This document shows, in pieces, positions 13,349 to 46,868 of a stretch of 64,000 nucleotides of DNA. Location of the stretch: contig JAYRSE010000007.1 of the NCBI GenBank assembly GCA_041920275.1, positions 20,517 through 84,516 on the forward strand, written 5' to 3'. Position numbers and translations under genes: made by a program. Below the pieces are notes generated by a model. The model made no database searches, was not told the DNA's origin, and worked only from the letters and a program-made list of their open reading frames with translations. The stretch comes from Minisyncoccota bacterium (lineage in GTDB: Bacteria > Patescibacteriota > Minisyncoccia > Phycocordibacterales > UBA12088). Within the stretch, counting starts at the first letter, position 1; every line of letters starts with the position of its first letter.

Positions 13349-14422
13349 TTATCGTGCAAGCGCACGAGTCAGCACATGGTCTACAAATTGGGGCAACGTA
13401 GCGCCAACGGATTCGACCGCCTTTGGCAAGAGTGACGTGTTGGTAAGCCCCGGAAGTGTGTTCACCTCGAGAAAGTATATGCCGTCGCGTCCCAGTATGA
13501 AATCGCTTCGCGAGTAGTCGCGCAAACCGAGTGCCCGGTGCACGTAGCGCGCAAGCGCGATGAGCGCACGAGTGGTTTCCGGCCGCACGGGCGCCGGGCA
13601 GAGCTCACGCGCATGGCCGGCGTACTTTTCCTCATAGTCGAACCAGGTATTCTTGGTGGGTACCACCTCGACCGGCGGAAACACGTAGTGCTCCTCCCCG
13701 CGAAAATCGTCGAGGACCGCGACCGTCACTTCTCTGCCCCTCACATACTGTTCCACCAATATCTGCTCCGCATGTTCGAACGCAAAGAGCACCGCATACA
13801 AGAACTCGTCGCGCGAACGCACCACGCTCATCCCGAGCGACGAGCCGCCGTTCATGGGCTTCACCACAAGCGGTGGAGAAAGCCGCTCGAAGACACGACT
13901 AAGCTCGTCCTCATCGGCGGGCGCACTGAGCACGACGTCGGCGGGAAAGAGCATTTGTACCCGCCCCTCACTCTGCACCGCCCCCATGTCGACTCCCCGA
14001 CGAAGCGAGGGGTCGTACACGTACACCGGTCGGTACCCCGCTCCCGTGTGCGACAGGTCTCCATCATACGACCTGCGAAAAAGCTCTCGTTTGGTAAGCT
14101 CCTTGTGGGTGGCCACACCCGAAGCGAGCGCGGACGAGCCGGTATACCGCACCCGATGCATGTCCATGTACCGTTGAAGCGCTCCGTCTTCACCATACTT
14201 ACCGTGGAGTGCGTTGAACACCACGTCCACCTGCCCCAATGCGCGAGCGGGCTCGATCGGCTTGCCGCGTATGTGCCACACGCCTTGCCGGTCGATAAAG
14301 AGATCAACCGGCTCATAGCGCTCCCGTGGGACCTGCTGCAGGACATTTCTTCCGGTCTTCAGAGAGACCTCGTACTCGGGCGAAGGGCCGCCGCGCATCA
14401 CTCCCACACGTGGCTTGAACAT
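13349..14422 (-). CDS. ddl: D-alanine--D-alanine ligase
   Basis: VDVVFNALHGKYGEDG ... LVVKPMNGGSSLGMSVV ... YFLEVNTLPGLT. Start at MFKPRVGVMRGG. Confidence 0.85.
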   Translation of the reverse strand: MFKPRVGVMRGGPSPEYEVSLKTGRNVLQQVPRERYEPVDLFIDRQGVWHIRGKPIEPARALGQVDVVFNALHGKYGEDGALQRYMDMHRVRYTGSSALASGVATHKELTKRELFRRSYDGDLSHTGAGYRPVYVYDPSLRRGVDMGAVQSEGRVQMLFPADVVLSAPADEDELSRVFERLSPPLVVKPMNGGSSLGMSVVRSRDEFLYAVLFAFEHAEQILVEQYVRGREVTVAVLDDFRGEEHYVFPPVEVVPTKNTWFDYEEKYAGHARELCPAPVRPETTRALIALARYVHRALGLRDYSRSDFILGRDGIYFLEVNTLPGLTNTSLLPKAVESVGATLPQFVDHVLTRALAR

Positions 14423-14518
14423 GACTACAGTATACCAGCTGTCACCGCCTCGATACCACTCCCCACAATGCACCGCGGTCGACATAGTGCGAGCGTTGCC
14501 AAAGGAGGTGCACCCCGC

Positions 14519-16228: not shown

Positions 16229-16243
16229 GTCGATCCAAGCGCA

Positions 16244-18832: not shown

Positions 18833-19178
18833 GAGGTAATGTGCGGAACAGTAACGAGTGTCCGCAGCACGAGTGTACCACTCTCTTATCCACACTCCAA
18901 CCGTGTTACAACTCGGGTCTGTGCGGTACGCTTATCATGCAAGTCGTTCGTTTTAGAAACGACACGCTTTTCAAACATCCATATGATACACATGCGACAA
19001 CCATTCTACTCGATCGCTTCCGCTGCGACGTACCTGTTGTGCGCCATCGGTCTCGGCTTGCTTGCCGCCACACCCGATGCGGTTTTACTGTTCGGCACGA
19101 CCGCCCCATCCTCCGCTCTATGGGCTCTGTGCGGACTCATGTTCCTTATGGCGTACTTTTCGCTCGTACACCTGAAGT

Positions 19179-21227: not shown

Positions 21228-21285
21228 AATACATATTGTATCGTATCTTGCGTACAGTTTCAACCTGTCAAAGAGGGTGTGGCGC

Positions 21286-21579
21286 ATGGAGACTGAGAAT
21301 ACCCATGTTCAGGAAGGCGACCATGTCATCCATGATGAGCAGTATGGCACTGTGAAGATCGTGCGCGATCTGCACGGCCATCATCCGAAGATCCTGTACC
21401 GGGGAGACAAGAAATTTCGAGACGATAAGGAGAGTTGGCATCATGGAACAGAAGCACTCCATGAGGCATTCTCCCTCATGGGGTTTCGCCTTAACCCGAT
21501 CTTCCGGAATTTCCGCATCACCACTTATGAAGTGACGCGCGGTGGTCCTTGCGGACTGTTCCTCCTCAAGAAGGAATGA
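21286..21579 (+). CDS. hypothetical small His-rich protein
   Basis: ORF with AAGAGGG upstream. No family recognised. Confidence 0.3.
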   Translation: METENTHVQEGDHVIHDEQYGTVKIVRDLHGHHPKILYRGDKKFRDDKESWHHGTEALHEAFSLMGFRLNPIFRNFRITTYEVTRGGPCGLFLLKKE

Positions 21580-33263: not shown

Positions 33264-33647
33264 TCACACCGGATTGAGCTTACGAAGGAGCAAACGACGT
33301 TGCTCGAGTTCCTTTCTTTGCAGCTCGAAATACACTCGTCCGGCCTTAGTGATCGAATACCTCTCACCATCCTTGATGACGTGCCCAAGTCGCTCATGCA
33401 TGTCCATAAAATGTTCGAGTGAGCACCACAGGCACGCGATCACTCGTTCGTCAACGGCCTCATGCGAAGCACCGGAAAGTGTGCGTCCCTCAAGCCACTC
33501 CTTCACCCGATCATGCGTTTCGGGTTGGACTCTGTTAAAGGCGTCCATCTGCCTTTTGATCTCTGCAAGCGTGATACCGTCACCGTCACGACCGAGCAAG
33601 GAAACACCCACGACGGTCACCCCGATCAGGTGATGCATCTTTTTCAT
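33264..33647 (-). CDS. hypothetical 127-aa protein (possible winged-helix regulator)
   Basis: ORF between the peptide gene and the ATP-grasp operon on the opposite strand. GERYSITKAGRVYFEL resembles a wing. Weak. Confidence 0.35.
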   Translation of the reverse strand: MKKMHHLIGVTVVGVSLLGRDGDGITLAEIKRQMDAFNRVQPETHDRVKEWLEGRTLSGASHEAVDERVIACLWCSLEHFMDMHERLGHVIKDGERYSITKAGRVYFELQRKELEQRRLLLRKLNPV

Positions 33648-33762
33648 GCGTCATCCTCCAAATCCAAATCTGCCTACATCGATAATAGCACCAAATTCGC
33701 ACGACACAACATACCAACCAACCCTCAAACCACCATTCCCACACCATGGTGACTTTGTTCGA

Positions 33763-33790
33763 TTGACATATCATGTAATGTCGATATATT
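33763..33790 (+). promoter_or_regulatory. sigma70-like promoter TTGACA-N16/17-TATATT upstream of the ATP-grasp operon
   Basis: TTGACA at 33763-33768 and TATATT/ATATTT at about 33785-33791. First in-frame ATG of the downstream gene is at 33811. Confidence 0.35.
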
Positions 33791-33810
33791 TATCGTGCGA
33801 CCACATACGC

Positions 33811-36309
33811 ATGCGGAGTCACCGGTGCACGACAGCATCCGATACGTCCTCACCATCATATCCGACCCACAACGTGAAAAAGAGACAAAACACCGAACAC
33901 TCCGAATTATCCGGAAAGACTATCATATTGGTCAACACCGGTTCGATGAAGAAAAAGTTCATCGTACAGCGACTGAAACAGCTCGGTCTTCGTATCATCG
34001 CAATCCATCATGAAAAGAACTGGGCCGCACCGTATGTCGATCGCTGGATACTCACCGACACCAAAAATCACACCAAGGCACTTGAAGATGTCGATTCGTT
34101 CCTGCACACACATACCGATCTTTCCGTGGATGGCATTCTTACCTTTTGGGAGGACGACGTGCTCTTGACCTCGAAGATCGCCGAGGAGCTTGACCTGATC
34201 AGCGTGCCGGTCGCAATTGCGCGGCAGGTGCGTGACAAATTTTTATTCAGGACGTTCTGTACCGAGAACGACATCCGCACACCAGAACATTTGCTTATTA
34301 AGGACGAACGGGATCTTGATCACGTCGTCGCCAACTTCACCTTCCCCGTCGTACTCAAGCCCACATTCGGCTCCGGGAGTGCATTTGTCATCAAGGCGCA
34401 AGACAAAGAGGAATTCTTCAATACGTACGAGTATATCGATCGCAACATATCTCCCAACATTGAATCTTCACTCAATGAGGGTCTCGATGTGCTGGTTGAA
34501 AGTTATATCGACGGCGACGAGGTCGATATCGATATCCTGCTCCAGAACGGAAAGATCAAATACTTTGCCATCGTCGACAACTATCGAACCGAGGAACCTT
34601 TTTTCATCGAAACCCAGCAAGCGATCCCCTCTGAACTTCCACGGAAGGACCAAGACGCGCTCGTGGAGATGGCCGAAACGGTGCTCGAAAAGTTGGGAAT
34701 CCAGAACGGCTGTATCCACTTCGAAGCAAAGGCGACTCGCCGGGGACCGGTACCGATCGAGATAAACCTCCGCATGGGGGGCGATGAGACCTACACATTC
34801 AGCAAAGAGGCATGGGGTGTTGATTTGATCGAGGGTGCGGCGAAGATCGCACTTGGAATATACCTCCCGAAGGTGCAAAAGCCGGATACCCCTCGAAAAT
34901 ACCTTATGAGCAACACGTTCACTCCGAAACAATCGGGACTTCTCGTCAAACTCGATGTAGACGAGCAAATAAAGAAAGTACCGGGCGTAGAGGAACTCTG
35001 TCTTTTCAAGCAAGCGGGCGATGCGGTATTGGTACCTCCCGAAGGATACGAGTATCTCGGTTGGATCGTGGTCTCGGGTGAGAATCCGCTCGATACGGAA
35101 CACAACTTCAACGAGGCACTGAAATGCATACGCTATGATGTCGCCCGATTCCACTCATCCTCTTCAATCGGGAAGACGCTTCGGCGAAACCGTTTTTCCA
35201 TGGCATCCGCCAACAAGGAACTCCTTGAAGGGGCGGCAAAGATCGAACGCATGCGACGCACCTCGATCAAGAACCAACGAAACCTGCATGTCGGTGTGGT
35301 CTACAACATGTTCCAAGAAGAAGATGGGGTCGTGGAAGCGGCACTCTCGGCAATGGGTACCGATATTGAGGAGGCACTCCATGAGCGCGGATATCAAACC
35401 ACCCCATTCGACATGAACGAACCCGTGCGCTGTATTAACGAGCTCAAGGGCAGCAATGTCGATATTGTATTCAATGCGTGTGGCAGGATCAACAATTCAA
35501 GCATGCTCAAGCCGCATGCGGCAGCGATTCTCGATATGTTGCGAATACCGTATACCGGATCCAATCCATTCACCCTCGGTCTCTGCAATGATAAGATACG
35601 GATCAAAAAGCTGCTCTCGTTCCACGGCATACCGACTCCGCGCTGGGATTACGCCTACACCATCGAGGATGACATCGACCAGACGCTCAAGTATCCACTC
35701 ATCGTAAAGCCGGCGAATACCGACAACTCGATCGGTATTACCAATGACTCGGTCGTCACCGATCGCGCACAGCTCCAGCAGCGACTCGCGTATGTCATTC
35801 ACGAACTCGGGAGTCCCGCGCTCATCGAGGAATACATCGACGGCGATGAATACGCGGTGCCGATCATCGGGAGCGAGGAAGACGACCTCCGAGTCCTTCC
35901 CCTCTCCCGCATTACGTTCGACACCTTGCCGAACGAGCTGTGGCACATCCTTCCGTACGATGCGAAGTGGGGGGACAAAACACCGTACGAAAAGATCTCC
36001 GTTGAGGAACCCTCGAAGAACACGAACAAGAAACTCGAGTCACTGATCACCGAGATCGCTCTCGACACGTACAATATACTCGATTGCCACGATTATGGTA
36101 TCGTGGAGATCAAGGTGGACAAAAACAGCAACCCATACGTACTTGAACTCAACCCGAACCAACACATGCGTACCGAGGACATACTTCCCCGTGCCGCACG
36201 GCTGGTGAAAATGAGCTACGCGGACCTGGTAGAAGAGATCATCCGAATCGCGATCAAACGATACGAGAACAGGCCACACTATTACCACCTGCAAACCGAC
36301 TCCATGTAG
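33811..36309 (+). CDS. di-domain ATP-grasp ligase (N-terminal ATP-grasp, C-terminal D-Ala-D-Ala-ligase-like ATP-grasp)
   Basis: Domain 1: FPVVLKPTFGSGSAFV ... ESYIDGDEVDIDIL ... HFEAKATRRGPVPIEINLRMGG. Domain 2: HVGVVYNMFQEE ... IVFNACGRINN ... LIVKPANTDNSIGIT ... EEYIDGDEYAVPIIG ... YVLELNPNQHM. Start uncertain (33811 ATG; could be GTG 33884). Confidence 0.7.
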   Translation: MRSHRCTTASDTSSPSYPTHNVKKRQNTEHSELSGKTIILVNTGSMKKKFIVQRLKQLGLRIIAIHHEKNWAAPYVDRWILTDTKNHTKALEDVDSFLHTHTDLSVDGILTFWEDDVLLTSKIAEELDLISVPVAIARQVRDKFLFRTFCTENDIRTPEHLLIKDERDLDHVVANFTFPVVLKPTFGSGSAFVIKAQDKEEFFNTYEYIDRNISPNIESSLNEGLDVLVESYIDGDEVDIDILLQNGKIKYFAIVDNYRTEEPFFIETQQAIPSELPRKDQDALVEMAETVLEKLGIQNGCIHFEAKATRRGPVPIEINLRMGGDETYTFSKEAWGVDLIEGAAKIALGIYLPKVQKPDTPRKYLMSNTFTPKQSGLLVKLDVDEQIKKVPGVEELCLFKQAGDAVLVPPEGYEYLGWIVVSGENPLDTEHNFNEALKCIRYDVARFHSSSSIGKTLRRNRFSMASANKELLEGAAKIERMRRTSIKNQRNLHVGVVYNMFQEEDGVVEAALSAMGTDIEEALHERGYQTTPFDMNEPVRCINELKGSNVDIVFNACGRINNSSMLKPHAAAILDMLRIPYTGSNPFTLGLCNDKIRIKKLLSFHGIPTPRWDYAYTIEDDIDQTLKYPLIVKPANTDNSIGITNDSVVTDRAQLQQRLAYVIHELGSPALIEEYIDGDEYAVPIIGSEEDDLRVLPLSRITFDTLPNELWHILPYDAKWGDKTPYEKISVEEPSKNTNKKLESLITEIALDTYNILDCHDYGIVEIKVDKNSNPYVLELNPNQHMRTEDILPRAARLVKMSYADLVEEIIRIAIKRYENRPHYYHLQTDSM

Positions 36310-36357: not shown

Positions 36358-37761
36358 ATGAATACACCGAACAGGCCGCTACCACAAGAGCTCGTTGTTG
36401 ACGGCAAAATCACCGACAGCGGGATCACGGTCGTCGTGAACAAAGAACGTTTTCCTATCCGCTATCCGAAGGCCATTTGGGCGAGCTACCCCGAGGATGC
36501 AAAGGCGGCGCTTTGCGATGCTCTGACGGTGAGTTCGACCATGTTCCTTCCCCAGATCTTGTCCCTTCCCGAAATACGCTACAAGACCGCACGAACCCTT
36601 GCCGAAACGTTCTTTTTCAAGAACGGCATCTACGACATGCCTTGCACGGCCATCTCGGATAAGAAATCGTCGATCACATACATCAAGGATTTCTTCAATG
36701 TTCGCTCGCATTTCGGCACCAATGTGATCCGAACCGTCCATACCGAACGTCCGATCTCGGACACGCCGACCGCCATCATCCCCTTCTCTTTCGGCAAAGA
36801 GAGCATGCTCACACTTGCCCTCTGTAAGGAGCTCGGCATCAGACCGATCCCGATCATTTTCATCGAACCTTCACACACCTTCGAACATGCGCACAAAAAG
36901 AAAATGATCGCTCTCTTCGAAAAGGAGTTCGACGTAAAGATATACATCACAGAGAATGCACCGGGTATTTTCAGGTATGGAAAATACTGGGGGTTTTCGA
37001 CGGAGCTTGGGTGGGGACTCCACACCACGGAATGTGCACTGCTTACACTTCCGTTTGCACACCACTTCAATGCGGACTACATCATCCTTGGAAACGAACA
37101 ATCATGCAACGATTTCTACATGAACAAAGAGGGTGTGCTCACATACTCCGCAGCCTATGATCAACACACCGACTGGACCACTCAACAAGGACTCCTTGCT
37201 TCCCTGTTGCTCGGTAGGGAGATCGAGGTTGCAAGCTTCATGGAGCCGCTGTACGAACTCGCGATACTGAAGGTGCTACACACTCGTTATCCTGCATACG
37301 GCGCGTACCAAATGTCGTGCTTTGCGAACAATGAACAGGCGAAAGAGGTACGGTGGTGCCAGAACTGCTCGAAATGCGCGTACGTCTATGCACTCTCAGC
37401 GGCCTCCGACATCGACCTTGAGCGCATGGGCTTCACGGAAAACCTGTTTGACAACGCGCACGCACACCTGTACACAGATTTCTTCAAAAAAAATGTTCCG
37501 GGTCTTGAGTATGGGACCAAGGAAGAGCTTGGCCTTGCATTCTTACTTGCCACCGACCGTGGCCGAACCGGTCACACGATCGATCTATTTCGAAAAAAGT
37601 CGTACGCTCATTTCGCCACACAGAAAGAAGAGCTCATGCGTCGGTACCTGGGCATCCACCCGTTCCAGAACATCCCGAACGATGTTTCCCCTGAGATCGT
37701 GCGCATATACGAACAAGAGCTCGGGGTATCCAAAACGAAAACACGTTTCCGTTCAAAATAG
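36358..37761 (+). CDS. PP-loop (adenine nucleotide alpha-hydrolase / PAPS-reductase-like) superfamily protein, specificity unknown
   Basis: IIPFSFGKESMLTLALCKELG resembles the vSFSGGKDS PP-loop. C-terminal CQNCSKCAYVY Cys cluster. Assignment from motif only. Confidence 0.45.
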   Translation: MNTPNRPLPQELVVDGKITDSGITVVVNKERFPIRYPKAIWASYPEDAKAALCDALTVSSTMFLPQILSLPEIRYKTARTLAETFFFKNGIYDMPCTAISDKKSSITYIKDFFNVRSHFGTNVIRTVHTERPISDTPTAIIPFSFGKESMLTLALCKELGIRPIPIIFIEPSHTFEHAHKKKMIALFEKEFDVKIYITENAPGIFRYGKYWGFSTELGWGLHTTECALLTLPFAHHFNADYIILGNEQSCNDFYMNKEGVLTYSAAYDQHTDWTTQQGLLASLLLGREIEVASFMEPLYELAILKVLHTRYPAYGAYQMSCFANNEQAKEVRWCQNCSKCAYVYALSAASDIDLERMGFTENLFDNAHAHLYTDFFKKNVPGLEYGTKEELGLAFLLATDRGRTGHTIDLFRKKSYAHFATQKEELMRRYLGIHPFQNIPNDVSPEIVRIYEQELGVSKTKTRFRSK

Positions 37762-37826
37762 TCCTTCCGGCCACACCATGTCAAGACGGGTAACTCATGA
37801 AAAGTACACATTCCACTTCACGCACC

Positions 37827-39110
37827 ATGGCGGTTTGGCTCAACATGCTGGAGCCCATCTTTTTTCACGAACGTGACCGCGATGGACTCTTGATCATCGC
37901 ACTCGATCACACTCCGGTCGCAGAGTACGCGCGGAAACACTACCGTTCCGACGAACTGCTTTTGGTATCAAGTACTCGACCGCTCCCATGTCCCACGTTC
38001 GACGAACTCCTTACCGAGACCGACCTTGCGGATCGACTCATGGAGCGATCGGTCACCCAACTCGCGGTACCGTACCGCACCAAGAAAGAGTACCGCGTGT
38101 GGGCTCGCGCTCACCACATCACGCTCATAACCCCTTCGGCACATATACAGAATCGCCTCGAGAACAAACGAGCGTTCCAACGACTGCTCGAAGGCCATGG
38201 CGTGCGTACACCCGCAGTACTTCGTGAACGAGCGCAGGTGCTGCCGGGAAAAACATACGTGATCCAAAAGAGCGTCGGCTCGGGCATGCTTGGCACCGAG
38301 TTTCTTCGAGCGGATGACGTGCGAGACATTCACTTCACCCGTTCAACCCTTGTCCGCGAGTACGTGGAGGGAATCCCTATCGGCGTAAGCATCATCATCG
38401 ATCGAGCGGGAATTGCGATCTTTTCGGCGACGCGAAGACAGTGTTTTGAGTACGAGAACGGCTTTCCGAAGACATTCCTCGGCATACAGTGGCTCCCTGC
38501 CGACTTCCTTTCGAAACAGACGATCGAATCGATCCGCCACGAACTAATGCGTGTCTGCTCGTTACTTCACACTGCATCCTTCGCCGGCATGGCCAACATC
38601 GACCTCGTCATAGCACACGACCGCGCGTACGTACTTGAATGCAATCCGCGCCTCTCTGCGTCGACCCCACAACTCTTTTCCGTACCGGGACTCACCGCAC
38701 ATGCGGAACCGTGGCCACTCTATGTGCGCGCCTGTTTACGCAAGCGATTCGACCTGTCAAATACTCTTATTTGTCACATTCCCAAGAGCCCCTACATGGG
38801 CTCCACGCTCGATATCGACGTGCCTGCATGTTCCGACACAACACACGTTCCCCCCGTGGGGACCTACCGCCTCACCCCCGCCGGCGTGTCTTTTGTCGAA
38901 AAGGATCGACACCTATCGGATGATCACAACACGTTCTTCCTTTTTCACGAACTCAGCGAACCACATACCCGCATACAACAAGCATTCACGCTCGCGAGCA
39001 TCTACAGCAACACGCCACTCTACGACCACACCACCGGCACCTTGAACGCGCACGGATCAAAACTGCGCACTGCCGTATGTACCTTATTCGGTTACCATCC
39101 CACCCCATGA
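37827..39110 (+). CDS. ATP-grasp domain enzyme (third ATP-grasp module of the operon)
   Basis: NKRAFQRLLEGHGVRTP ... YVIQKSVGSGMLGTEF ... VREYVEGIPIGVSII ... MANIDLVIAHDRAYVLECNPRLS. Confidence 0.65.
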   Translation: MAVWLNMLEPIFFHERDRDGLLIIALDHTPVAEYARKHYRSDELLLVSSTRPLPCPTFDELLTETDLADRLMERSVTQLAVPYRTKKEYRVWARAHHITLITPSAHIQNRLENKRAFQRLLEGHGVRTPAVLRERAQVLPGKTYVIQKSVGSGMLGTEFLRADDVRDIHFTRSTLVREYVEGIPIGVSIIIDRAGIAIFSATRRQCFEYENGFPKTFLGIQWLPADFLSKQTIESIRHELMRVCSLLHTASFAGMANIDLVIAHDRAYVLECNPRLSASTPQLFSVPGLTAHAEPWPLYVRACLRKRFDLSNTLICHIPKSPYMGSTLDIDVPACSDTTHVPPVGTYRLTPAGVSFVEKDRHLSDDHNTFFLFHELSEPHTRIQQAFTLASIYSNTPLYDHTTGTLNAHGSKLRTAVCTLFGYHPTP

Positions 39111-40468
39111 ATACACACAATGACAGGACGCCACCACTCGTTTCCGAAGTGATGAAAGCGGAACTTCGTAAGAAATTCACGCGTATTTTGCGCGAAGAAT
39201 ATACCGGATCCGCACGAAGCTTGCTACCGGTCGTACGAGGCGTGCGCCGGAAGCGCGATCGATTCCTCGAGATCGTCCGGACGCATGGCACACCGTGCTT
39301 CGTGCTCGATGAAGAGGCGCTTGAAGACTCGCTCGAATCGTTCGATCGAGCGTTCAAGGCGATTCCCGACCTGGAAACATACTATGCGATAAAAGTGAAC
39401 GACCACCCGGTTGTATTGCGTACGATCGTTGAACATGGGTACGGACTGGACGCTTCGAGCGAACGTGAGCTCCGTCTTGCGATCGAAGCGGGAGCGAAAC
39501 GGATCATATACACCGGTCCCGCAAAGAGCCGCGCGGGACTTTCTCTTGCACTCGAACACGCCTCCAAGGTGGTAGTGCACCTCGACAGTTTTCACGAACT
39601 TGCACTCCTCGCGGAGGTCACTTCCGCACAAGAACGGGCAATCGTTGCGGGAGTACGGATCACCTCGGCGTCCGCGTGGAACAAATTCGGCATACCGCTT
39701 GAAGACCTGCGCCGATTCTATGACCTCGCCCGCAACCATCCGAGCATTGACCTATGCGGTATTCAGACACATCGGAGTTGGAACACGGACCACGAACCGT
39801 ACGTGGATACGATGCGTCAGGTTGCAACATACCTTGCGGACCATTTCACCACCGAAGAACGCGCCGGTTTCCGTTTTTACGACTTTGGTGGCGGTTTTGT
39901 CCCCGATGCAACGGAAGGAGAGCACCCGTGGTATTCGCCACAAGGAAAAGTGGTACGAGCCATCTACGAATACTTCGAGGAAGAAGCCCCCTTCCCCTAC
40001 AAACACCACACGTTCCGCTCATCACCACTGCGCGAATACGCACGCGGTATCGCCGTCGGTATAAAAAACCACCTCCGACCGACCCTTCCGAATGCACGGT
40101 ACATGACGGAGCCGGGTCGCATCATTGCCGACAGTGCGATGCATGTGCTGCTTCGTATAGCGGATCGCAAGGAAGGACTCATTATCGCGGATGGCGGCTT
40201 GAACATGATCGGATATGAGCGTTATGAAGATGAGTACTTTCCCATCGTAAACCTTACACATCCGGGAAAAAAGGAGATTGACTGCATGGTCTACGGCTCA
40301 CTCTGCATGATGCAAGACCGCTGGGGATACTCATGCTTCGCATCAAAACTCGAGATCGGTGACGTGCTCGTGGTACCGAACCAAGGCGCCTTGACCTACT
40401 CGCTCTCACAAGACTTCATTCACGGCAAACCCCCGGTGCACATACTTCCTCGTTCATCACGGAAGTGA
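39107..40468 (+). CDS. PLP-dependent decarboxylase, fold type III (diaminopimelate/ornithine decarboxylase family)
   Basis: TPCFVLDEEAL ... YAIKVNDHPVVLRTIVEHGYGLDASSERE (PLP lysine) ... FDFGGGF. Start ATG overlaps the upstream stop (ATGA). Confidence 0.75.
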   Translation: MNTHNDRTPPLVSEVMKAELRKKFTRILREEYTGSARSLLPVVRGVRRKRDRFLEIVRTHGTPCFVLDEEALEDSLESFDRAFKAIPDLETYYAIKVNDHPVVLRTIVEHGYGLDASSERELRLAIEAGAKRIIYTGPAKSRAGLSLALEHASKVVVHLDSFHELALLAEVTSAQERAIVAGVRITSASAWNKFGIPLEDLRRFYDLARNHPSIDLCGIQTHRSWNTDHEPYVDTMRQVATYLADHFTTEERAGFRFYDFGGGFVPDATEGEHPWYSPQGKVVRAIYEYFEEEAPFPYKHHTFRSSPLREYARGIAVGIKNHLRPTLPNARYMTEPGRIIADSAMHVLLRIADRKEGLIIADGGLNMIGYERYEDEYFPIVNLTHPGKKEIDCMVYGSLCMMQDRWGYSCFASKLEIGDVLVVPNQGALTYSLSQDFIHGKPPVHILPRSSRK

Positions 40469-41708: not shown

Positions 41709-43682
41709 CTATCGTCCCTCACCCGACGTCTTTTTTTTCAGAGTATCAAGCTTCTTCATGTACGCCAGGAACGTGAGAATGTACTGCGCGTGACTCCAGA
41801 TGAGCGGAGTGACCGAAGTTGGAGCGTGGGTTACAGGATGATACTGCTCGGCAAAAAGACCGGCCTCGTTCGCACGCCGCTTCATCCACTCGAGCCGTCG
41901 CCGAGGCATTTCCAGGTCCTGCAGGTCCTTTGCGCGCGCGATCTCATACTCTGCGACCCAACACGTGGTGACCACCCACGGATTACTTGCCGCATCGTGG
42001 TGTGCGAAGTATCGATCGCCATCGTAGCGCGCTATGCCGATACCCTCCACATCGGTCGTCAGCGCAGCACAGGTGCGTTCGTACACTCGCTCCAGGATCG
42101 GATCGTCCGGTGGGAGAACACCGAAGCGAAAGAGGCCGTAAAAGCTCGAGACGTCGACCGTCTCATCGAGCGATTGCTCGCCATGACTGGAAACAATGCA
42201 CTTCGCAGCGCGCCCATCTTGTGAGACAAGTGTACGCATGATACCATCACGCACCTCCTCGGCAGCAGTCCCCCATCTCCTGCAAGAAACCTCCTTACCA
42301 AGCAACTTGGCGAAAGATGCGGCGGTGGTAAGTGCCGCATATACCACACTTGACGTGTACGTGAACGCGCCCACACGCTCTTCCCACAGATCATGACTCG
42401 GAAGCGGCAGCTTCGTCTTTTTGTCTCTGTATCGAGCGAGAAAGTCGGCGACACGACGGATGTACGGGTTGTACATCTCCTCAATGAACTCGACATCATG
42501 CGTGAGCTCATAATGTCTCCCGAGGGCGATCAAAGTGATCGCGGTTTCATCTTCTTGAATGGGTGGCTGCGCACGTCCATCGCGCACCCACGGATGCCAC
42601 GAACTCCCGAGCGAACGATCGGTACGATATTTATGGAGCAGATATCCGTCGTCCGTAAGTGTTTCCTGTGCAAACTTGTGGAACGAACGCGAGATCGTGG
42701 TGTGACCGGTCTCCAAAAATGCGAGCACCACGTACGCCGAATCTCTGGGCCAACAGTAGCTGTAGGTATCACGCCCACTCTGCAAGATACTCGAATCGCC
42801 GGATGCGACCACCGCTCCGCCATTGTCCGTATGCGTGCGCATGACCAAAAGCGACCTGCGACACAATGTGACGAGCTCAGGATCGATACCTTCGGGGTGA
42901 CACCCCGGCCGATCCACCCAAGCCCTCCAGTAGTCCATAGTGGTCCTCAACAGATGCATGGGGCTTCTGGTCAAAATGTCACGATGGTGCCGTTCAACGA
43001 CGCGATACGACTGCCCCACCGCGATCCAGTATGAAAGCGAACGCGAACCCTTGCTTCGCACCGTCATGGTCAAGCCGAGCACCGAGTCGACACTGCCGTG
43101 TTCAATGCCGCTCTTCGAAAGAACGCCGTCCTCGGCATCACGCCACGTACCCTCTCTACCTTCGATACCCAGGAGACCAACCCCATAGTCATCAAAGAAG
43201 TCTTCGTCGCTTCGCGCTGAGACGAGGATGACTCGACGCCCCTTGTAGTGCACCAGTGCCTGCAACTCCGGCGAGTAGTACGCCGTATCCCCGCGCTCCG
43301 TCTCACTTATATGAAACTGTTGATTGAAAAAAACCTTGAACACGCGGTCGCGGTCGAAGAGATTCTCAACCGTTACCGAGCGCACGAAAATGTCATGTTC
43401 ATTGTAGACGATGTCGAAAAAAGAGAGAGCGATACCCGCCTCACGATGCACCGCGCGCACCGCACCGACCAACGTGTCCTTCTCATAGGTTACCTGCACC
43501 TCAAAGCCACCACCGGAAAGCCAGTGCATCGCACCGTCCACGAAAACACCAATACGATGCATGAGACGTTCACCAACATGGTTCTCAAGACCGACCTGGG
43601 GAAAATAGAAGTCGCGCACCTGACCCCACTCATCGTACACGATGAGGACATTCCCATTTCCCAATACGAGTGAGCGAGCCAT
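41709..43682 (-). CDS. GH15-family glycoside hydrolase (glucoamylase / glucodextranase / trehalase-like)
   Basis: DNGGAVVASGDSSILQSGRDTYSYCWPRDSAYVVLAF, including the GH15 WPRD block. 657 aa. Confidence 0.75.
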   Translation of the reverse strand: MARSLVLGNGNVLIVYDEWGQVRDFYFPQVGLENHVGERLMHRIGVFVDGAMHWLSGGGFEVQVTYEKDTLVGAVRAVHREAGIALSFFDIVYNEHDIFVRSVTVENLFDRDRVFKVFFNQQFHISETERGDTAYYSPELQALVHYKGRRVILVSARSDEDFFDDYGVGLLGIEGREGTWRDAEDGVLSKSGIEHGSVDSVLGLTMTVRSKGSRSLSYWIAVGQSYRVVERHHRDILTRSPMHLLRTTMDYWRAWVDRPGCHPEGIDPELVTLCRRSLLVMRTHTDNGGAVVASGDSSILQSGRDTYSYCWPRDSAYVVLAFLETGHTTISRSFHKFAQETLTDDGYLLHKYRTDRSLGSSWHPWVRDGRAQPPIQEDETAITLIALGRHYELTHDVEFIEEMYNPYIRRVADFLARYRDKKTKLPLPSHDLWEERVGAFTYTSSVVYAALTTAASFAKLLGKEVSCRRWGTAAEEVRDGIMRTLVSQDGRAAKCIVSSHGEQSLDETVDVSSFYGLFRFGVLPPDDPILERVYERTCAALTTDVEGIGIARYDGDRYFAHHDAASNPWVVTTCWVAEYEIARAKDLQDLEMPRRRLEWMKRRANEAGLFAEQYHPVTHAPTSVTPLIWSHAQYILTFLAYMKKLDTLKKKTSGEGR

Positions 43683-43709
43683 GGCATGTTACCGTACACC
43701 CCGGATGTA

Positions 43710-44132
43710 CTACTTGCAGCAGGGTGAACGCAGTGCTTGCATCGTCTTCGCACGACTCGTGGCACCCTCGACCCGCGAAGCAAGCGCGTCTTTACCAAAA
43801 CAATCACGGAGCCATACCGCAAAATCGTTTCCATTACGCCTCGTGTGGTAGGAATACTGCTCGTCGGTCATCTCCCCAAGGGCCTCCATGAGCTCCGCAA
43901 CCGAGGAGACCACCGGCCCGTGGTGGATCCAGAACGCTTCTTCCGGTTTACATGCGGCGCGACACACGCATGCTGTGTCCCTGGTCGATGTTTTCTTTAC
44001 GGCGACACGCTTGCTCGCAGTCGTCGTACGCTTCTCCTTCACTACGGTCGACGGCGTTCGTGTCTCTTTCTTCTGCTTTGGGGTGGACGCCTTTTCTTCC
44101 ACCTTTTTCTGAGCCGGGGTCTTTGTAGGCAT
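43710..44132 (-). CDS. hypothetical protein with Lys-rich N-terminal tail
   Basis: MPTKTPAQKKVEEKASTPKQKKETR ... followed by a C-terminal globular part. No family recognised. Confidence 0.4.
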   Translation of the reverse strand: MPTKTPAQKKVEEKASTPKQKKETRTPSTVVKEKRTTTASKRVAVKKTSTRDTACVCRAACKPEEAFWIHHGPVVSSVAELMEALGEMTDEQYSYHTRRNGNDFAVWLRDCFGKDALASRVEGATSRAKTMQALRSPCCK

Positions 44133-44136
44133 ATGT

Positions 44137-45411
44137 TTATGACTTAATGGCTTGTAATACGGAACGAGTTTTATGTGAAAGGGCTTCCAGGAACGTACGC
44201 TTGTGCCGCCGTTCCGGAAGTGCACGCACACGCATGGTGAGGTCGTTGAGCACGTTCATGTACGCTATGAACGCTTCATAGGGGGAATCGTACGGACTGA
44301 AATACTTATGTACATCACCATCCTCCCACCATTTGGTGCACATGTAGTAGAAATGGTCCGAGGTGGTGAGTCGACGCCAATCACGCAAAAGCTCAGGGTC
44401 GTTGGCACTTTTGACCTCGCCCTCAATGGCATACAACGCGCGAAGTGCGTCGTGCTGTATCGGATTGCTGCGCCACGCGGAAAGGTCACGTTCGACGTCG
44501 GCCCACGAAACGTAGTCCGGCACATCGATCTCACCGACCGCGGGGTACCGCGTAAGCGCTTCCGTGGGAGTGACGAAGCCATTGTCCGGATAGCGCGTGA
44601 CTTCGTGCGGCAATGCCCGAAGAAAGTCAAAAATGCCCGTATCTTCCCACTGGTGCTCGCCGAACGTCTCGTAGTCCATGAAAAGGTTGATGACGTGCCC
44701 ATCGCCATTGTGCGCATCCACCCACTGGGCGAACTTCGGTGCCGTGAGCGGCCACTCTTCCCATCCGCGATTTGAAAACCGGAACGCGATGTCGTCGGAG
44801 AGTTTGTAGTGCTTGAGCAGCAAGCGAAAACCGGGATCGTTGCGCGCATGGTACACGTAGGTCGGTTTTCGCCAACCGAGCACATGGTCGGCCCCTTCCG
44901 CAAGCATGCCGAGGTACCCCATGTCGGCGACCATGGCGGCGATGTCGTTGCGGTAGATAAGCTCCGTATTGCGAAACACGTACGGCCGCACGCCGAACAA
45001 CTCGCGCACCTTACGCGCGTGCATCCGCACCTGTTCGCGAAACTCATCGGGTGACTCGAGGAACGCAAGCGAGTGATAGTAGGTCTCCGAAAGCACTTCC
45101 ACACGGCCGGTGTCAATGAGACGTTTGAAAGACTCCACCACCTCGGGCGCATACTCTTCGAACTGTTCAAGCGCGATCCCGGAGAACGAGAACGCGACCT
45201 TGAAATCCGGATGTGTCCTCAGGCTTTCAAGCAACGTGGCGTTTGCCGGCAAGTAACACTTTTCTGCCACCTTACGCACGATACGGGCGTTGTTGGTGTC
45301 ACGCTCCGAGTCGTCGTTGAAGTACCGATGATCGGCACCGATATCAAAAAAGCCGTAACGCTTGACGCGTCGTGGCTGATGGACTTGAAAATACATGCAC
45401 ACCGCACTCAT
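44137..45411 (-). CDS. GH57-family alpha-glucan-active enzyme (alpha-amylase / 4-alpha-glucanotransferase / branching-enzyme-like)
   Basis: N-terminal YFQVHQP motif typical of GH57. 424 aa. Confidence 0.75.
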   Translation of the reverse strand: MSAVCMYFQVHQPRRVKRYGFFDIGADHRYFNDDSERDTNNARIVRKVAEKCYLPANATLLESLRTHPDFKVAFSFSGIALEQFEEYAPEVVESFKRLIDTGRVEVLSETYYHSLAFLESPDEFREQVRMHARKVRELFGVRPYVFRNTELIYRNDIAAMVADMGYLGMLAEGADHVLGWRKPTYVYHARNDPGFRLLLKHYKLSDDIAFRFSNRGWEEWPLTAPKFAQWVDAHNGDGHVINLFMDYETFGEHQWEDTGIFDFLRALPHEVTRYPDNGFVTPTEALTRYPAVGEIDVPDYVSWADVERDLSAWRSNPIQHDALRALYAIEGEVKSANDPELLRDWRRLTTSDHFYYMCTKWWEDGDVHKYFSPYDSPYEAFIAYMNVLNDLTMRVRALPERRHKRTFLEALSHKTRSVLQAIKS

Positions 45412-46634
45412 ACTCGTAGAACGGTCTTTTTCAAAGACCTATAGATCATCATACAGCGTTCCGCCACTCTTCTCCAAGTCTGTGCCCCCGCCTCGCGACG
45501 CCCCTCGCGGGAAAGTGTTTCGCGCAGCGAGGGATGGTCGAGCACCGCGGCGATCTTGTTCGCCATATCATCGGTATCCCAAAAATCGACCTTGAGCGCG
45601 TTGTGTATCACCTCGGAAACACCCGACTGTTTCGAAATGAGAACCGGGGTGCCATTCAAAAGCGACTCGAGCGGCACGATACCGAACGGCTCCGAGACCG
45701 AGGGCATGACGACCACATCGGCCAATCCATAAAGTCGCGCGAGCTGCTTGTCACGCAAGAAACCGGTGAAAAGCACCCGATCTCCGATGCCGAGGTACGC
45801 CGCACGATCGATGACCGCCTGCGCCATGTCGCCCGAACCGGATACCACGAACAGTGTGTTCGTACGCCGAGAGAGGACCTTCTTCGCCGCTTCCAAAAAG
45901 TAGTCGGGGCCCTTCTGCAGTGTGAGTCGACCAACAAAAAGCACGATGCTCCACCCGAGACCCTTGAACCTGCGCATATCGGACTCGGTGGCGCTTGCGA
46001 CCGCAATGTCATCCGAATCGATACCGTTGTGCACCACCACCACCTTGTCGGGATCGATGCCGTACCGATCGACAACGATGCGCTTCGTGTATTCGGAGAC
46101 GGTCACCACGACATCCGCCTCGTACATACCTCGACGTTCGATATCGTAAATGGACTGATTCACCTTACCGAAACCGGTACGGTCGAACTCGGTGGCATGA
46201 ACATGAGCCACGAGCGGAGCTCCCGTAGCACGCTTTGCCGCCATTCCGGCCGGGTAGCAGAGCCAGTCATGCATGTGAATCACATCCGGCTGTTGTGCCA
46301 ATGCGACCATGGGCGAAAGTGCGGCGTAGCGGAGCACCTCGTCGAACAGGCTCGGACCGTACTGCAACTCCGGGTATTGGCCACGCAAGAAACGCAGCCG
46401 GTCATCGGTCATGTATCCGTTCGCAAAGGAATCCGCCTCTACGGCAGTAAGCGGGCGTGCTTCATCGGCAAAGAGCATACGTGCGCCACTATTTGCGACC
46501 GGATACTTGCGCGGGAGCACAAAGCGAACGTCGGCACCCTCGGCAACGAGGCCGCGTGCCAGGCCATGGCACGCAACGCCAAGACCACCACTGTTGTGCG
46601 GTGGGTACTCCCAGCCGTACATAAGTACACGCAT
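45408..46634 (-). CDS. GT4-family glycosyltransferase (glycogen/alpha-glucan synthase-like)
   Basis: MRVLMYGWEYPPHNSGGLGVACHGLARGL N-terminus. EX7E-type C-terminal half. 4-nt overlap with the GH57 gene. Confidence 0.75.
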   Translation of the reverse strand: MRVLMYGWEYPPHNSGGLGVACHGLARGLVAEGADVRFVLPRKYPVANSGARMLFADEARPLTAVEADSFANGYMTDDRLRFLRGQYPELQYGPSLFDEVLRYAALSPMVALAQQPDVIHMHDWLCYPAGMAAKRATGAPLVAHVHATEFDRTGFGKVNQSIYDIERRGMYEADVVVTVSEYTKRIVVDRYGIDPDKVVVVHNGIDSDDIAVASATESDMRRFKGLGWSIVLFVGRLTLQKGPDYFLEAAKKVLSRRTNTLFVVSGSGDMAQAVIDRAAYLGIGDRVLFTGFLRDKQLARLYGLADVVVMPSVSEPFGIVPLESLLNGTPVLISKQSGVSEVIHNALKVDFWDTDDMANKIAAVLDHPSLRETLSREGRREAGAQTWRRVAERCMMIYRSLKKTVLRV

Positions 46635-46868
46635 TGTATGAACTATGCCGGCACGCGCGTTACGGCTTGCACGCCCCGCATTGCTTTTCAGTATACACCA
46701 AAACGGTATTCGGCATGCCGAACGCTGTGCATAACTCACAAATTCCTCTGATCGAGCGTCGCGAACGAGGTGTTGTCATACGAAAGAAACCGGGTATCTG
46801 CCGCGTAGTACACAGCAGACCGATCGGAAATACATTACCTATTCAACAATAAATAATGAACTAAACGT

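What the first reader, a model, noticed from the sequence alone, without database searches (positions are those of the whole stretch)
33811..36309. Single polypeptide carrying two ATP-grasp ligase domains, the second Ddl-like, in addition to the housekeeping ddl
Both halves have complete ATP-grasp cores (K-loop, Mg-binding E.N motif). The first is ELNLRMGG-type. The second is Ddl-like with YVLELNPNQHM in place of the Ddl E.N.PG motif. Tandem ATP-grasp fusions are known in CarB and a few peptide ligases. A Ddl-like module fused behind a non-Ddl ATP-grasp suggests two sequential, different ligations, e.g. a side-chain amide plus a dipeptide-like bond. The N-terminal start is uncertain (ATG 33811 just downstream of the promoter, or later GTG).
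Basis: partly seen in the sequence, partly recalled or inferred. Interest (0 to 1): 0.55.

Follow-up and report, generated by a model that had tools for sequence, protein, structure and literature searches.

The report
Two-module peptide ligase of Patescibacteria
One 811-residue protein really does join an L-amino-acid-ligase module to a D-Ala-D-Ala-ligase-like module; it belongs to a large, strongly conserved, unstudied family of ultra-small (Patescibacteria/CPR) bacteria that sits in operons with peptide epimerases, a third ligase and a decarboxylase, so it probably builds a small modified peptide that nobody has identified.

Summary
The ORF encodes two complete ATP-grasp modules. Residues 1-425 are an L-amino-acid-ligase (LAL) type and residues 471-811 have a full Ddl fold. 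A separate housekeeping ddl lies at 13349-14485. The true start is GTG 33874 (811 aa), not ATG 33811.

The protein is not a one-off. At least 470 species genomes, essentially all Patescibacteria, encode full-length orthologues at 55-97% identity. A 29%-identical version occurs in a Bdellovibrionales MAG. None is characterised.

Recurrent same-strand partners are:
- a distant MurL-like ATP-dependent peptide epimerase
- an enolase-type dipeptide epimerase
- a third ATP-grasp followed by a DAP/Orn-type PLP decarboxylase
- a FemAB-like GNAT
- a SET methyltransferase

The window carries the fusion, MurL-like, ATP-grasp and decarboxylase genes as one operon.

My best reading is a ribosome- and NRPS-independent assembly line: LAL ligation, C-terminal L-to-D epimerisation, Ddl-like ligation, then extension and decarboxylation. 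The product is unknown.

This lineage has remodelled the Ddl-like active site. The catalytic Arg (DdlB R255) is Ile, and ELNPNPSI has become ELNPNQHM. Strong purifying selection persists. The 62-aa "substrate peptide" is a non-conserved antisense ORF.

The parts
33874..36309 (+). Gene for the 811-aa two-module ATP-grasp ligase (GTG start; stop codon 36307-36309).
   Evidence: The start is fixed by orthologue lengths and by in-frame stops upstream of the same GTG in L005.
33874..35148 (+). Module 1 (residues 1-425): L-amino-acid-ligase type ATP-grasp with the ATPgrasp_N, ATP-grasp_4 and LAL_C2 domains. Catalytic residues are K122, K162, E209, H282, E284, E296, N298, R300 and G302-G303-D304.
   Evidence: Pfam. 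3vot at E 4e-26 and TM 0.87. Invariant columns. Codons read.
35149..35283 (+). Inter-module linker (residues 426-470). It carries the invariant motif SSIGKTxRKNRF (S430, G433, K434, T435, R437) and a helix at 448-470.
   Evidence: AF2 pLDDT is below 50 for residues 425-450. Invariant columns.
35284..36306 (+). Module 2 (residues 471-811): Ddl-fold ATP-grasp. It retains E488 (probable DdlB E15), K574, K612, K698, E745, E758 and N760. This clade carries G537, K546, A661, I743 (= DdlB R255), Q763-H764-M765 and K779 in place of the family's E, E, D, R, P-S-I and G.
   Evidence: The Ile codon ATC is also found in L005.
33763..33790 (+). Promoter-like site TTGACA-16-TATATT (11 of 12 matches), about 85 nt upstream of the GTG start.
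   Evidence: This is a consensus match only; the number of such sites in the region is not above the shuffled controls.
36358..37761 (+). 467-aa distant relative of MurL, the ATP-dependent C-terminal peptide epimerase. It has a PP-loop-like SFGKES motif and invariant C321 and C334-x2-C337-x2-C340.
   Evidence: NF041275 at E 4e-7 for this protein; 30 of 30 family members hit it, best E 6e-12. Faint PAPS_reduct/QueC matches. Alignment A2. Adjacent to the fusion in 17 of 82 loci.
37797..39110 (+). Third ATP-grasp ligase (ATP-grasp_3; 437 aa, or 427 aa from ATG 37827). Invariant E281-C-N283-P-R285.
   Evidence: Pfam E 2e-16. Alignment A3. AF2 pLDDT 91. Only generic biotin-carboxylase-like fold matches, TM about 0.55-0.6. 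Next to the fusion and/or the decarboxylase in 12 loci and in L085.
39077..40468 (+). Fold-type III PLP decarboxylase (DAP/Orn/Arg decarboxylase family). It probably starts at ATG 39107, where ATGA overlaps the preceding stop codon.
   Evidence: Orn_Arg_deC_N E 2e-28 plus the C-terminal sheet domain. lysA model 139 bits, below the 298 cut-off. PDB matches: DAP decarboxylase 2yxx 3e-27, N-citrylornithine decarboxylase 7kh2 6.5e-22, BtrK 2j66 2.7e-15 and 7ru7 1.8e-15. ATGA overlap.
13349..14485 (-). Housekeeping D-Ala-D-Ala ligase. It is not part of the system and is listed because the finding refers to it.
   Evidence: NF002378 at 242 bits and TIGR01205 at 231 bits. It keeps the HGxxGEDG and E-x-N-T-x-PG motifs and the R255 equivalent (alignment).

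Best explanation
The gene encodes a bifunctional peptide ligase that makes two different ATP-dependent amide bonds in one pathway. That pathway is conserved across Patescibacteria and builds a short, modified, non-ribosomal peptide-like molecule.

Shown:
- There are two complete ATP-grasp modules of different subfamilies.
- The fusion is conserved in at least 470 species.
- It is linked in operons to a fixed set of partner enzymes.

Inferred order of events:
1. The LAL-type N-module phosphorylates the carboxylate of one L-amino acid and condenses it with a second, giving an L,L-dipeptide.
2. The MurL-like ATP-dependent epimerase inverts the C-terminal residue to D. In other lineages an enolase-type dipeptide epimerase may also do this.
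3. The Ddl-fold C-module has an ancestral donor site built for a D-configured carboxylate. It activates that D-residue and adds a further amine.
4. The third ATP-grasp attaches an amino acid through a side-chain linkage that leaves a free alpha-amino-acid head. The DAP/Orn-type PLP enzyme then decarboxylates that head. This is the same logic as BtrJ/BtrK and as N-citrylornithine decarboxylase.
5. In other lineages a FemAB-like GNAT and a SET methyltransferase add further steps.

The product is unknown. In the lineage of this window the C-module has an altered, more cationic active site without the usual Arg. I read this as a change of substrate or of transition-state stabilisation, not decay.
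For: Two modules:
- Domain and fold evidence.
- Both sets of ATP/Mg residues are invariant in 22-121 orthologues.

Family size and conservation:
- At least 470 species genomes carry it.
- There are 744 representatives at E<=1e-30.
- Mean pairwise identity is 60% for the N-half and 72.5% for the C-half.

Partners, on the same strand and often within tens of bases:
- GNAT in 29 loci, lying 6-41 nt downstream of the fusion in 27 of them.
- MurL-like 17, SET 16, decarboxylase 14-15, third ATP-grasp 12, dipeptide-epimerase-like 5.
- 50 of 82 loci carry at least one partner.

The module survives deep divergence:
- A Bdellovibrionales MAG has the fusion (29% id), then ATP-grasp_3, Orn_Arg_deC, LAL and SET.
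- A 41%-identical fusion has Acetyltransf_6 starting 2 nt downstream.

Support for the inferred steps:
- MurL is an ATP-dependent epimerase of a peptide C-terminal L-Glu (PMC8788868). The neighbour family hits the MurL model in 30 of 30 members.
- An LAL combined with a dipeptide epimerase yields an L,D-dipeptide in vitro (PMC13338154).
- The decarboxylase resembles enzymes that act on conjugated amino acids: 7kh2 and BtrK.

Selection: window versus L005 gives pN 0.065-0.073 with synonymous sites saturated (pS about 0.78) in both halves.
Against: - No biochemical data exist for any member, and the literature searches found nothing.
- In 32 of 82 loci no partner lies within 6 kb. 15 of those 32 have less than 3 kb of flank on one side.
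- The order of steps is inference only.
- The probable E15 equivalent (E488) is invariant. That would fit a donor with a free alpha-amine, meaning a free D-amino acid, better than an N-acylated dipeptide. The E15 mapping rests on one MAFFT alignment.
- In this lineage the Arg equivalent to DdlB R255 is Ile. R255 contacts the acyl-phosphate mimic in DdlB (PMC5717164). Module 2 may therefore not ligate here.
- Some loci hold both a MurL-like and an enolase-type epimerase, which the simple scheme does not explain.
Confidence: 0.45

Rival explanations
1. Cell-wall role. The enzyme and its partners work on peptidoglycan stem-peptide chemistry. One version is a racemase-independent supply of D-residues (ligate L,L; epimerise; use or release the D-residue). 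Another is synthesis of a side branch or cross-bridge on the murein precursor.
For: The closest characterised relatives of nearly all the parts are murein enzymes:
- Ddl
- MurL
- L-Ala-D/L-Glu epimerase (NF041118, 190 bits)
- FemAB-like GNAT
- DAP decarboxylase

In L073, L077 and L079 the cluster follows murD-ftsW-murG directly. In the window and in L005, ftsA and ftsZ lie 4-7 kb upstream.
Against: - Adjacency to division/cell-wall (dcw) genes is seen in only two lineages out of 82 loci.
- All matches to murein-enzyme models are far below the curated cut-offs.
- The window already has a normal ddl, and L073 has a normal murD.
- SET methyltransferases and Orn/DAP-type decarboxylases are not known murein-precursor enzymes (my own knowledge).
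- No UDP-sugar-binding domain was found.
Confidence: 0.2
2. In this lineage only the N-module is a ligase. The Ddl-like module has become a non-catalytic, nucleotide-binding, scaffolding or regulatory domain after losing the catalytic Arg.
For: - R743I plus E537G, E546K, D661A, P763Q, S764H, I765M and G779K all fall on elements that form the DdlB active site.
- They occur only in the query and its three closest relatives, P0001-P0003.
- The clade's C-half is 62% identical to the rest of the family, against 72.5% among the others.
Against: - All ATP- and Mg-binding residues are kept.
- The C-half is under purifying selection as strong as the N-half: pN 0.065 versus 0.073.
- The changes are concerted and charge-shifting, with a gain of K546, H764 and K779. 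That looks like retuning rather than drift.
- The LAL module itself has His, not Arg, at the structurally equivalent position (H282-F-E284).
Confidence: 0.15
3. It is a GshF-like or carnosine-synthase-like synthetase of a simple cytoplasmic di- or tripeptide, such as a low-molecular-weight thiol or a beta-Ala/GABA dipeptide. The neighbours supply or tailor the building blocks.
For: - GshF also ends in a Ddl-like ATP-grasp that adds the last residue (my own knowledge; GshF is cited in PMC13338154).
- JGI labels two relatives 'carnosine synthase'.
- A stand-alone N-half homologue sits directly after a GCS2 glutamate-cysteine-ligase-family gene.
- A PLP decarboxylase could make beta-Ala or GABA.
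Against: - There is no GshA/GCL domain in the fusion.
- The labels are automatic.
- Two kinds of epimerase, a tRNA-type GNAT and a SET enzyme are not needed for such simple products.
Confidence: 0.1
4. It modifies a ribosomal peptide or a protein (graspetide-like or RimK-like), for example the 62-aa ORF upstream.
For: - ATP-grasp enzymes and SET methyltransferases do modify peptides and proteins (established knowledge).
- A SET gene recurs in the neighbourhood.
Against: - The 62-aa ORF (33586-33774, minus strand) overlaps the divergent gene, is an antisense product of a CA-rich spacer, and has no match in the 88%-identical locus L005.
- No conserved small ORF accompanies the fusion in 82 loci.
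- Both modules resemble free-amino-acid ligases, not RimK or graspetide ligases.
Confidence: 0.05

Closest known systems
L-amino acid ligases (BL00235 of Bacillus licheniformis, BacD/YwfE, RizA, TabS)
   Same: The N-half has the same three-domain architecture (ATPgrasp_N, ATP-grasp_4, LAL_C2) and the E-x-N-x-R-x-G-G motif. It matches 3vot at E 4e-26 and TM 0.87.
   Different: Identity is only about 22%. It is fused to a second ligase. It is conserved as a near-housekeeping gene across a whole phylum-level radiation rather than sitting in an antibiotic cluster. Its substrates are unknown.
D-alanine--D-alanine ligase (DdlB, Ddl of B. anthracis) and Van ligases
   Same: The C-half has the full Ddl fold, including the N-terminal domain, with TM 0.85-0.87. 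It keeps the equivalents of K97, K144, K215, D257(E), E270 and N272, and probably E15. Most of the family also keeps R255.
   Different: - It scores below the Ddl model cut-offs: 181 versus 243 bits.
- The HGxxGEDG loop is replaced by CERINNSSLLEPH.
- S150 becomes N, Y216 becomes W/F, G276 becomes S, and S281 becomes D.
- There are several insertions.
- In this clade R255 becomes I.
- A genuine ddl exists elsewhere in the window.
GshF/GshAB bifunctional glutathione synthetase
   Same: One polypeptide has two different ligase modules that make successive amide bonds, and the C-terminal module is a Ddl-like ATP-grasp (my own knowledge).
   Different: The N-module here is an ATP-grasp LAL, not a GshA-type glutamate-cysteine ligase. 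The gene neighbourhood is different.
MurD2/MurL alternative murein pathway (Xanthomonas)
   Same: The logic is to ligate an L-amino acid first and then epimerise the peptide's C-terminal residue with an ATP-dependent enzyme (PMC8788868). The neighbour gene is a distant MurL homologue.
   Different: The ligase here is an ATP-grasp, not a Mur ligase. The MurL similarity is weak: the window protein scores 28.8 bits against a cut-off of 700, and the best E among 30 members is 6e-12. There is no evidence that the substrate is a UDP-MurNAc peptide.
BtrJ/BtrK (butirosin) and FslC (rhizoferrin) ligate-then-decarboxylate steps
   Same: An ATP-dependent ligase is immediately followed by a DAP-decarboxylase-family PLP enzyme that acts on a conjugated amino acid. 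The decarboxylase matches 7kh2 at 6.5e-22 and BtrK at 2.7e-15 and 1.8e-15.
   Different: No carrier protein or NIS synthetase is present in the operon. The third ATP-grasp has no close solved relative.
Carbamoyl-phosphate synthetase large subunit (CarB)
   Same: It has two ATP-grasp bodies in one chain.
   Different: The two modules here belong to different subfamilies. The CarB model scores 52 bits against a cut-off of 1027. The domain arrangement does not superpose, rmsd about 24 A.

Membership tests
ATP-grasp superfamily (both halves) | The ATP-grasp fold with two conserved Lys for ATP and an E/D...E-x-N Mg2+ triad. | tested here: met
   Pfam hits above gathering for both halves. Fold matches. 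K122/K162/E284/E296/N298 and K574/K612/E745/E758/N760 are present and invariant.
L-amino acid ligase family (N-half) | ATPgrasp_N + ATP-grasp + LAL_C2 architecture and similarity to solved LALs. | tested here: met
   (LAL_C2 at 49.7 bits, cut-off 29.4). (3vot, E 4e-26). (TM 0.87).
L-amino acid ligase family (N-half) | ATP-dependent synthesis of a dipeptide from two unprotected L-amino acids. | not testable with these tools
   This needs an enzyme assay.
D-alanine--D-alanine ligase, EC 6.3.2.4 (C-half) | A score above the curated Ddl family cut-offs. | tested here: not met
   NF002378 scores 181 against 243, and TIGR01205 scores 134 against 246. The housekeeping ddl in the same window scores 242 and 231.
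D-alanine--D-alanine ligase, EC 6.3.2.4 (C-half) | The substrate and transition-state residues of DdlB: E15, H63/GEDG loop, S150, Y216, R255, G276, S281. | tested here: not met
   Alignment: E15 is probably kept as E488. H63 becomes E (G here), the GEDG loop is replaced, S150 becomes N, Y216 becomes W, R255 becomes I in this clade (R in 116 of 121 family members), G276 becomes S (H here), and S281 becomes D.
Carbamoyl-phosphate synthetase large subunit | Two homologous CPSase_L_D2 modules plus oligomerisation and allosteric domains, with a score above the TIGR01369 cut-off. | tested here: not met
   52 bits against 1027. CPSase_L_D2 is detected only in the N-half. Superposition gives rmsd about 24 A.
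GshF bifunctional glutathione synthetase | An N-terminal GshA-type glutamate-cysteine ligase domain. | tested here: not met
   There is no GCL/GCS domain among the Pfam or NCBIfam hits.
Cyanophycin synthetase | An ATP-grasp plus a Mur-ligase-like M domain, with a score above the TIGR02068 cut-off. | tested here: not met
   51.7 bits against 850, and no Mur_ligase domain.
Mycosporine MysC/MysD system | Clustering with DDGS/EEVS and O-methyltransferase genes. | tested here: not met
   The neighbours in the window are MurL-like, ATP-grasp_3 and a PLP decarboxylase. No such genes appear among the recurrent neighbours in 82 loci.
Graspetide / RiPP ATP-grasp | A conserved adjacent precursor-peptide gene. 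| tested here: not met
   The 62-aa ORF is not conserved in L005. There is no recurrent small ORF family next to the fusion.
MurL (neighbour 36358-37761) | [quoted passage not shown] | tested here: not met
   The window protein scores 28.8 bits against a cut-off of 700. All 30 of 30 members match weakly, best E 6e-12. It is a distant homologue, not an orthologue, and its activity cannot be tested here.

The most novel reading that the evidence does not exclude
The fusion is the core of an undescribed peptide assembly line that is independent of both NRPS and the ribosome. The line comprises three to five ATP-grasp modules, a MurL-like and/or enolase-type C-terminal epimerase, a DAP/Orn-type decarboxylase, a tRNA-type GNAT and a SET methyltransferase. 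It is maintained across most classes of Patescibacteria and sporadically elsewhere (Bdellovibrionales). It would make a D-residue-containing, decarboxylated, possibly N-methylated peptide with a near-essential role in these reduced cells, for example a lineage-specific cell-wall substituent or cofactor-like metabolite.
Probability: 0.35. Interest if true: 0.75.

Novelty: new variant of a known kind. Interest (0 to 1): 0.58.

Why it matters
Patescibacteria have lost most biosynthesis. Even so, they keep this 810-residue double ligase with its Ddl-like half about 72% identical across classes. That is unusual conservation for organisms whose proteins are typically very divergent (my own knowledge).

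A conserved, unassigned, ATP-expensive pathway in such small genomes probably makes something these cells cannot take from a host. Identifying the product would add a piece of core physiology for a large, almost uncultivated part of the bacterial tree.

It would also give a natural example of ligate, then epimerise, then ligate peptide synthesis, which so far has been assembled only artificially (PMC13338154).

On the practical side, these proteins are currently auto-labelled 'D-alanine-D-alanine ligase' or 'carnosine synthase', and neither label is supported.

Tried and rejected
- **Carbamoyl-phosphate synthetase fragment:** rejected.
- **The 62-aa ORF as substrate or precursor:** rejected as non-conserved antisense sequence.
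- **ATG 33811 as the start:** rejected.
- **Riboswitch or T-box leader that might reveal the substrate:** no Rfam hit in the window. Six related loci gave only tRNAs. One call failed on a size limit.
- **Literature on this fusion or on ATP-grasp systems in Patescibacteria:** nothing relevant was found. The Iyer/Aravind 2009 amidoligase paper is not held.
- **Link to division/cell-wall (dcw) clusters:** found only in L073/L077/L079 and, loosely, in the window and L005. This is too thin to carry the cell-wall reading.
- **Other recurrent neighbours:** SIMPL, DNA_alkylation, RlmH-like, sigma factor, HU, LemA/TPM. I judged these to be lineage synteny rather than functional partners.
- **Fold search of the third ATP-grasp:** only generic biotin-carboxylase-like matches, so no functional lead.
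- **PDB sequence searches of the MurL-like protein and the third ATP-grasp:** no relative found.
- **Vancomycin-resistance-type reading of CPR Ddl-like genes (PMC8651080):** not applicable, because there is no van operon context here.


Full report
**1. What is there**

The ORF 33646-36309 (+) is intact. Profile searches split it cleanly into two parts. Unless stated otherwise, residue numbers below are in the 811-aa numbering from GTG 33874. Coordinates in the 832-aa frame are 21 higher.

- **N-terminal part.** It has the ATPgrasp_N, ATP-grasp_4 and LAL_C2 domains typical of L-amino acid ligases.
- **C-terminal part.** It aligns to almost the whole D-Ala-D-Ala ligase model (positions 26-302 of 305), but scores 181 bits against a curated cut-off of 243.
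- **Solved structures by sequence.** The N-half matches the L-amino acid ligase BL00235 (3vot, E 4e-26), BacD and RizA. The C-half matches Ddl of B. anthracis, Y. pestis and E. coli (E 1e-25 to 1e-19).
- **Predicted structure.** An AlphaFold2 model built on 22 orthologues has pLDDT 77 and pTM 0.55. It superposes on 3vot and on Ddl 3r5x with TM 0.87 each, normalised by target length.
- **Not CPS.** Carbamoyl-phosphate synthetase matches only as two unrelated bodies, rmsd about 24 A.
- **Second ddl.** A normal ddl (378 aa, 242 bits) lies at 13349-14485 (-) next to uvrC.

**2. Start codon and operon**

Orthologues are 806-826 aa long and cover 96-97% of the 832-aa reading. The 88%-identical orthologue in L005 starts at the same GTG and has in-frame stops just upstream. 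The gene is therefore 33874-36309, 811 aa.

A TTGACA-16-TATATT site lies at 33763-33790. Three genes follow on the same strand, separated by gaps of 48 and 35 nt and then an ATGA overlap:

| Coordinates | Product | Evidence |
|---|---|---|
| 36358-37761 | 467-aa MurL-like protein | |
| 37797-39110 | ATP-grasp_3 ligase | |
| 39077/39107-40468 | DAP/Orn/Arg-family PLP decarboxylase | |

The '62-aa peptide' can only be 33586-33774 (-). It is a Trp/Cys-rich antisense reading of a CA-rich spacer, it overlaps the divergent 127-aa gene, and it has no counterpart in L005. I treat it as spurious.

**3. The family**

- The word-indexed protein search returned more than 120 full-length fusions at 55-97% identity. 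Those that carry names are called Patescibacteria, Peregrini-, Gracili-, Komeili-, Roizman-, Pace- or Buchananbacteria. They are labelled only 'ATP-grasp domain-containing protein' or 'D-alanine-D-alanine ligase'.
- The exhaustive representative search gave 744 representatives at E<=1e-30.
  - About 15 are full-length fusions, down to 29% identity.
  - There are also stand-alone N-half-like proteins (410-445 aa) and C-half-like proteins (330-370 aa).
  - N-half-like domains also occur inside 1,100-5,940-residue proteins.
- Two relatives carry the automatic label 'carnosine synthase'. The 29% fusion is from a Bdellovibrionales MAG.
- Literature searches found no study of this architecture.

**4. 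Active sites**

In a 121-sequence alignment both modules keep their ATP/Mg residues.

- Module 1 has K122, K162, E209, H282, E284, E296-x-N298-x-R300-x-G-G-D.
- Module 2, aligned to E. coli DdlB and to the window's own Ddl:
  - It keeps the equivalents of K97, K144, K215, D257 (as E), E270 and N272. In 116 of 121 sequences it also keeps R255.
  - An invariant Glu (E488) probably corresponds to E15. This mapping rests on MAFFT only.
  - It differs at the D-Ala sites. The HGxxGEDG loop is replaced by CERINNSSLLEPH. S150 becomes N, Y216 becomes W/F, G276 becomes S and S281 becomes D. There are several insertions.

Module 2 is therefore a Ddl-fold ligase, but not a D-Ala-D-Ala ligase.

**5. A peculiarity of this lineage**

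The query and its three closest relatives (P0001-P0003, 88-97% identical to the query) depart from residues that are at least 93% conserved, and almost all the departures are in module 2. They are E537G, L544M, E546K, D661A, R743I, P763Q, S764H, I765M and G779K.

- R743 aligns with DdlB R255.
- In DdlB, R255 together with Glu15 lies within hydrogen-bonding distance of the phosphorylated D-cycloserine intermediate mimic (PMC5717164).
- The Ile codon is ATC in both the window and L005, so it is not a sequencing error.
- The C-half of this clade is 62% identical to other family members, whereas those members average 72.5% among themselves. The N-half figures are 56% and 60%.
- Window versus L005 shows saturated synonymous change (pS about 0.78) with pN only 0.065 in the C-half and 0.073 in the N-half.

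The remodelled module is thus under strong purifying selection. The net change makes the site more cationic. I read this as retuning of substrate or transition-state handling. A non-catalytic role cannot be excluded.

**6. Gene neighbourhood**

I compared 82 non-redundant loci with tblastn and all-against-all clustering.

| Partner | Loci | Notes |
|---|---|---|
| Acetyltransf_6 / FemAB-like GNAT | 29 | 6-41 nt downstream on the same strand in 27 of them |
| MurL-like | 17 | upstream or downstream of the fusion |
| SET-domain protein | 16 | found together with both kinds of neighbourhood (GNAT and MurL-like/decarboxylase) |
| PLP decarboxylase | 14-15 | usually directly after the ATP-grasp_3 gene |
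| ATP-grasp_3 | 12 | |
| Enolase-superfamily protein | 5 | best model is L-Ala-D/L-Glu epimerase (NF041118, 190 bits, below cut-off); 17 nt after the fusion in L008 |

Fifty of the 82 loci have at least one partner within 6 kb. All 30 sampled MurL-like proteins hit the MurL model, with a best E of 6e-12. They also show faint PP-loop (PAPS reductase/QueC) similarity. That agrees with MurL's proposed adenylation chemistry (PMC8788868).

The linkage survives deep divergence:
- The Bdellovibrionales locus L085 reads fusion, ATP-grasp_3, Orn_Arg_deC, LAL, SET, GNAT+CN_hydrolase.
- A 41%-identical fusion in L089 is followed 2 nt later by Acetyltransf_6.
- A stand-alone N-half homologue sits between a GCS2 ligase and a CntK_N-domain protein; CntK is known to me as a racemase.

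In L073, L077 and L079 the cluster follows murD-ftsW-murG and includes an extra short Ddl-like gene.

**7. Mechanism**

The committed reading is a stepwise peptide assembly line:
1. LAL ligation.
2. C-terminal L-to-D epimerisation.
3. Ligation by a Ddl-fold module whose ancestral donor site takes a D-configured carboxylate.
4. Side-chain-type ligation by the third ATP-grasp.
5. Decarboxylation of the free amino-acid head.

Step 5 follows from PLP decarboxylase chemistry, which needs a free alpha-amine. It parallels BtrK and N-citrylornithine decarboxylase, both of which match this decarboxylase.

The ligate-then-epimerise logic works in vitro with TabS plus the T. maritima dipeptide epimerase (PMC13338154).

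The architecture, the conservation and the gene linkage are shown. The order of steps, the substrates and the product are inferred.

**8. Rivals**

- *Murein-precursor role.* It is attractive because most of the parts have murein enzymes as their nearest characterised relatives. However, every such match is far below family cut-offs, dcw adjacency is rare, and normal ddl and murD genes coexist with the system.
- *Pseudo-enzyme module 2 in this clade.* This is possible, but selection and the retained nucleotide and metal residues argue against it.
- *GshF- or carnosine-like simple peptide synthetase.* It does not explain the epimerases, the GNAT or the SET protein.
- *RiPP or protein-modification role.* It lacks a conserved substrate gene.

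**9. Verdict**

This is a real two-module ligase and a member of a large, uncharacterised, Patescibacteria-wide family. The gene context points to a multi-step modified-peptide pathway. It is a new variant within the known kind 'ATP-grasp peptide ligases'. The lineage-specific loss of the Ddl catalytic Arg adds a second, testable oddity.

Noticed in passing
window 33264-33647 (-): A divergently oriented 127-aa ORF lies directly upstream of the operon. It is conserved in L005 (42% identity) but has no Pfam or NCBIfam hit. Its C-terminus looks winged-helix-like, so it may be a regulator of the operon.
   Followed up: partly
window 35149-35283 (residues 426-470 of the fusion) and 36280-36306 (C-terminal tail): The inter-module linker is predicted to be disordered (pLDDT below 50), yet it carries an invariant SSIGKTxRKNRF motif. 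The C-terminal tail RPPYYHLQ is also invariant and also low-confidence. Both could be mobile elements that enter an active site or mediate oligomerisation.
   Followed up: no
family alignment (window 35284-36306 versus orthologues): The Ddl-like half is more conserved across Patescibacteria (72.5% mean pairwise identity) than the LAL half (60%). That is remarkably high for this radiation.
   Followed up: partly
L073 7384-8460 (also L077, L079): A stand-alone 343-358-aa Ddl-like paralogue (EVNPNPGW motif, 73 bits to the Ddl model) sits between murG and the MurL-like gene, in the dcw position where ddl or murC would be expected. Whether it is that organism's only ddl is unknown.
   Followed up: partly
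L009, L030, L052, L061 (for example L061 10235-11419) and L020 13743-15605: Two further recurrent cluster genes have no Pfam or NCBIfam hit. One is a protein of about 370-394 aa next to the dipeptide-epimerase-like gene. The other is about 400-620 aa and has a HELAH metallopeptidase-like motif.
   Followed up: no
window 1-64000: There is no Rfam family at gathering threshold anywhere in the 64 kb, not even a tRNA.
   Followed up: no
window 41709-46739 (-): There is a run of alpha-glucan genes just downstream: GH15 glucoamylase-like, GH57, and a GT4/GT5 starch-synthase-like transferase. The GH15 gene is syntenic in L005.
   Followed up: no
window 13349-21287: The housekeeping ddl sits beside uvrC, uvrA and uvrB rather than in a division/cell-wall cluster. 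The uvrC ORF is short (438 aa against a model of about 600).
   Followed up: no
window 37797/37827 and 39077/39107: The start codons of the two downstream genes are probably later than the longest ORFs. The ATP-grasp_3 gene is called at 427 aa in an identical database entry. The decarboxylase has an ATGA stop/start overlap at 39107-39110.
   Followed up: partly
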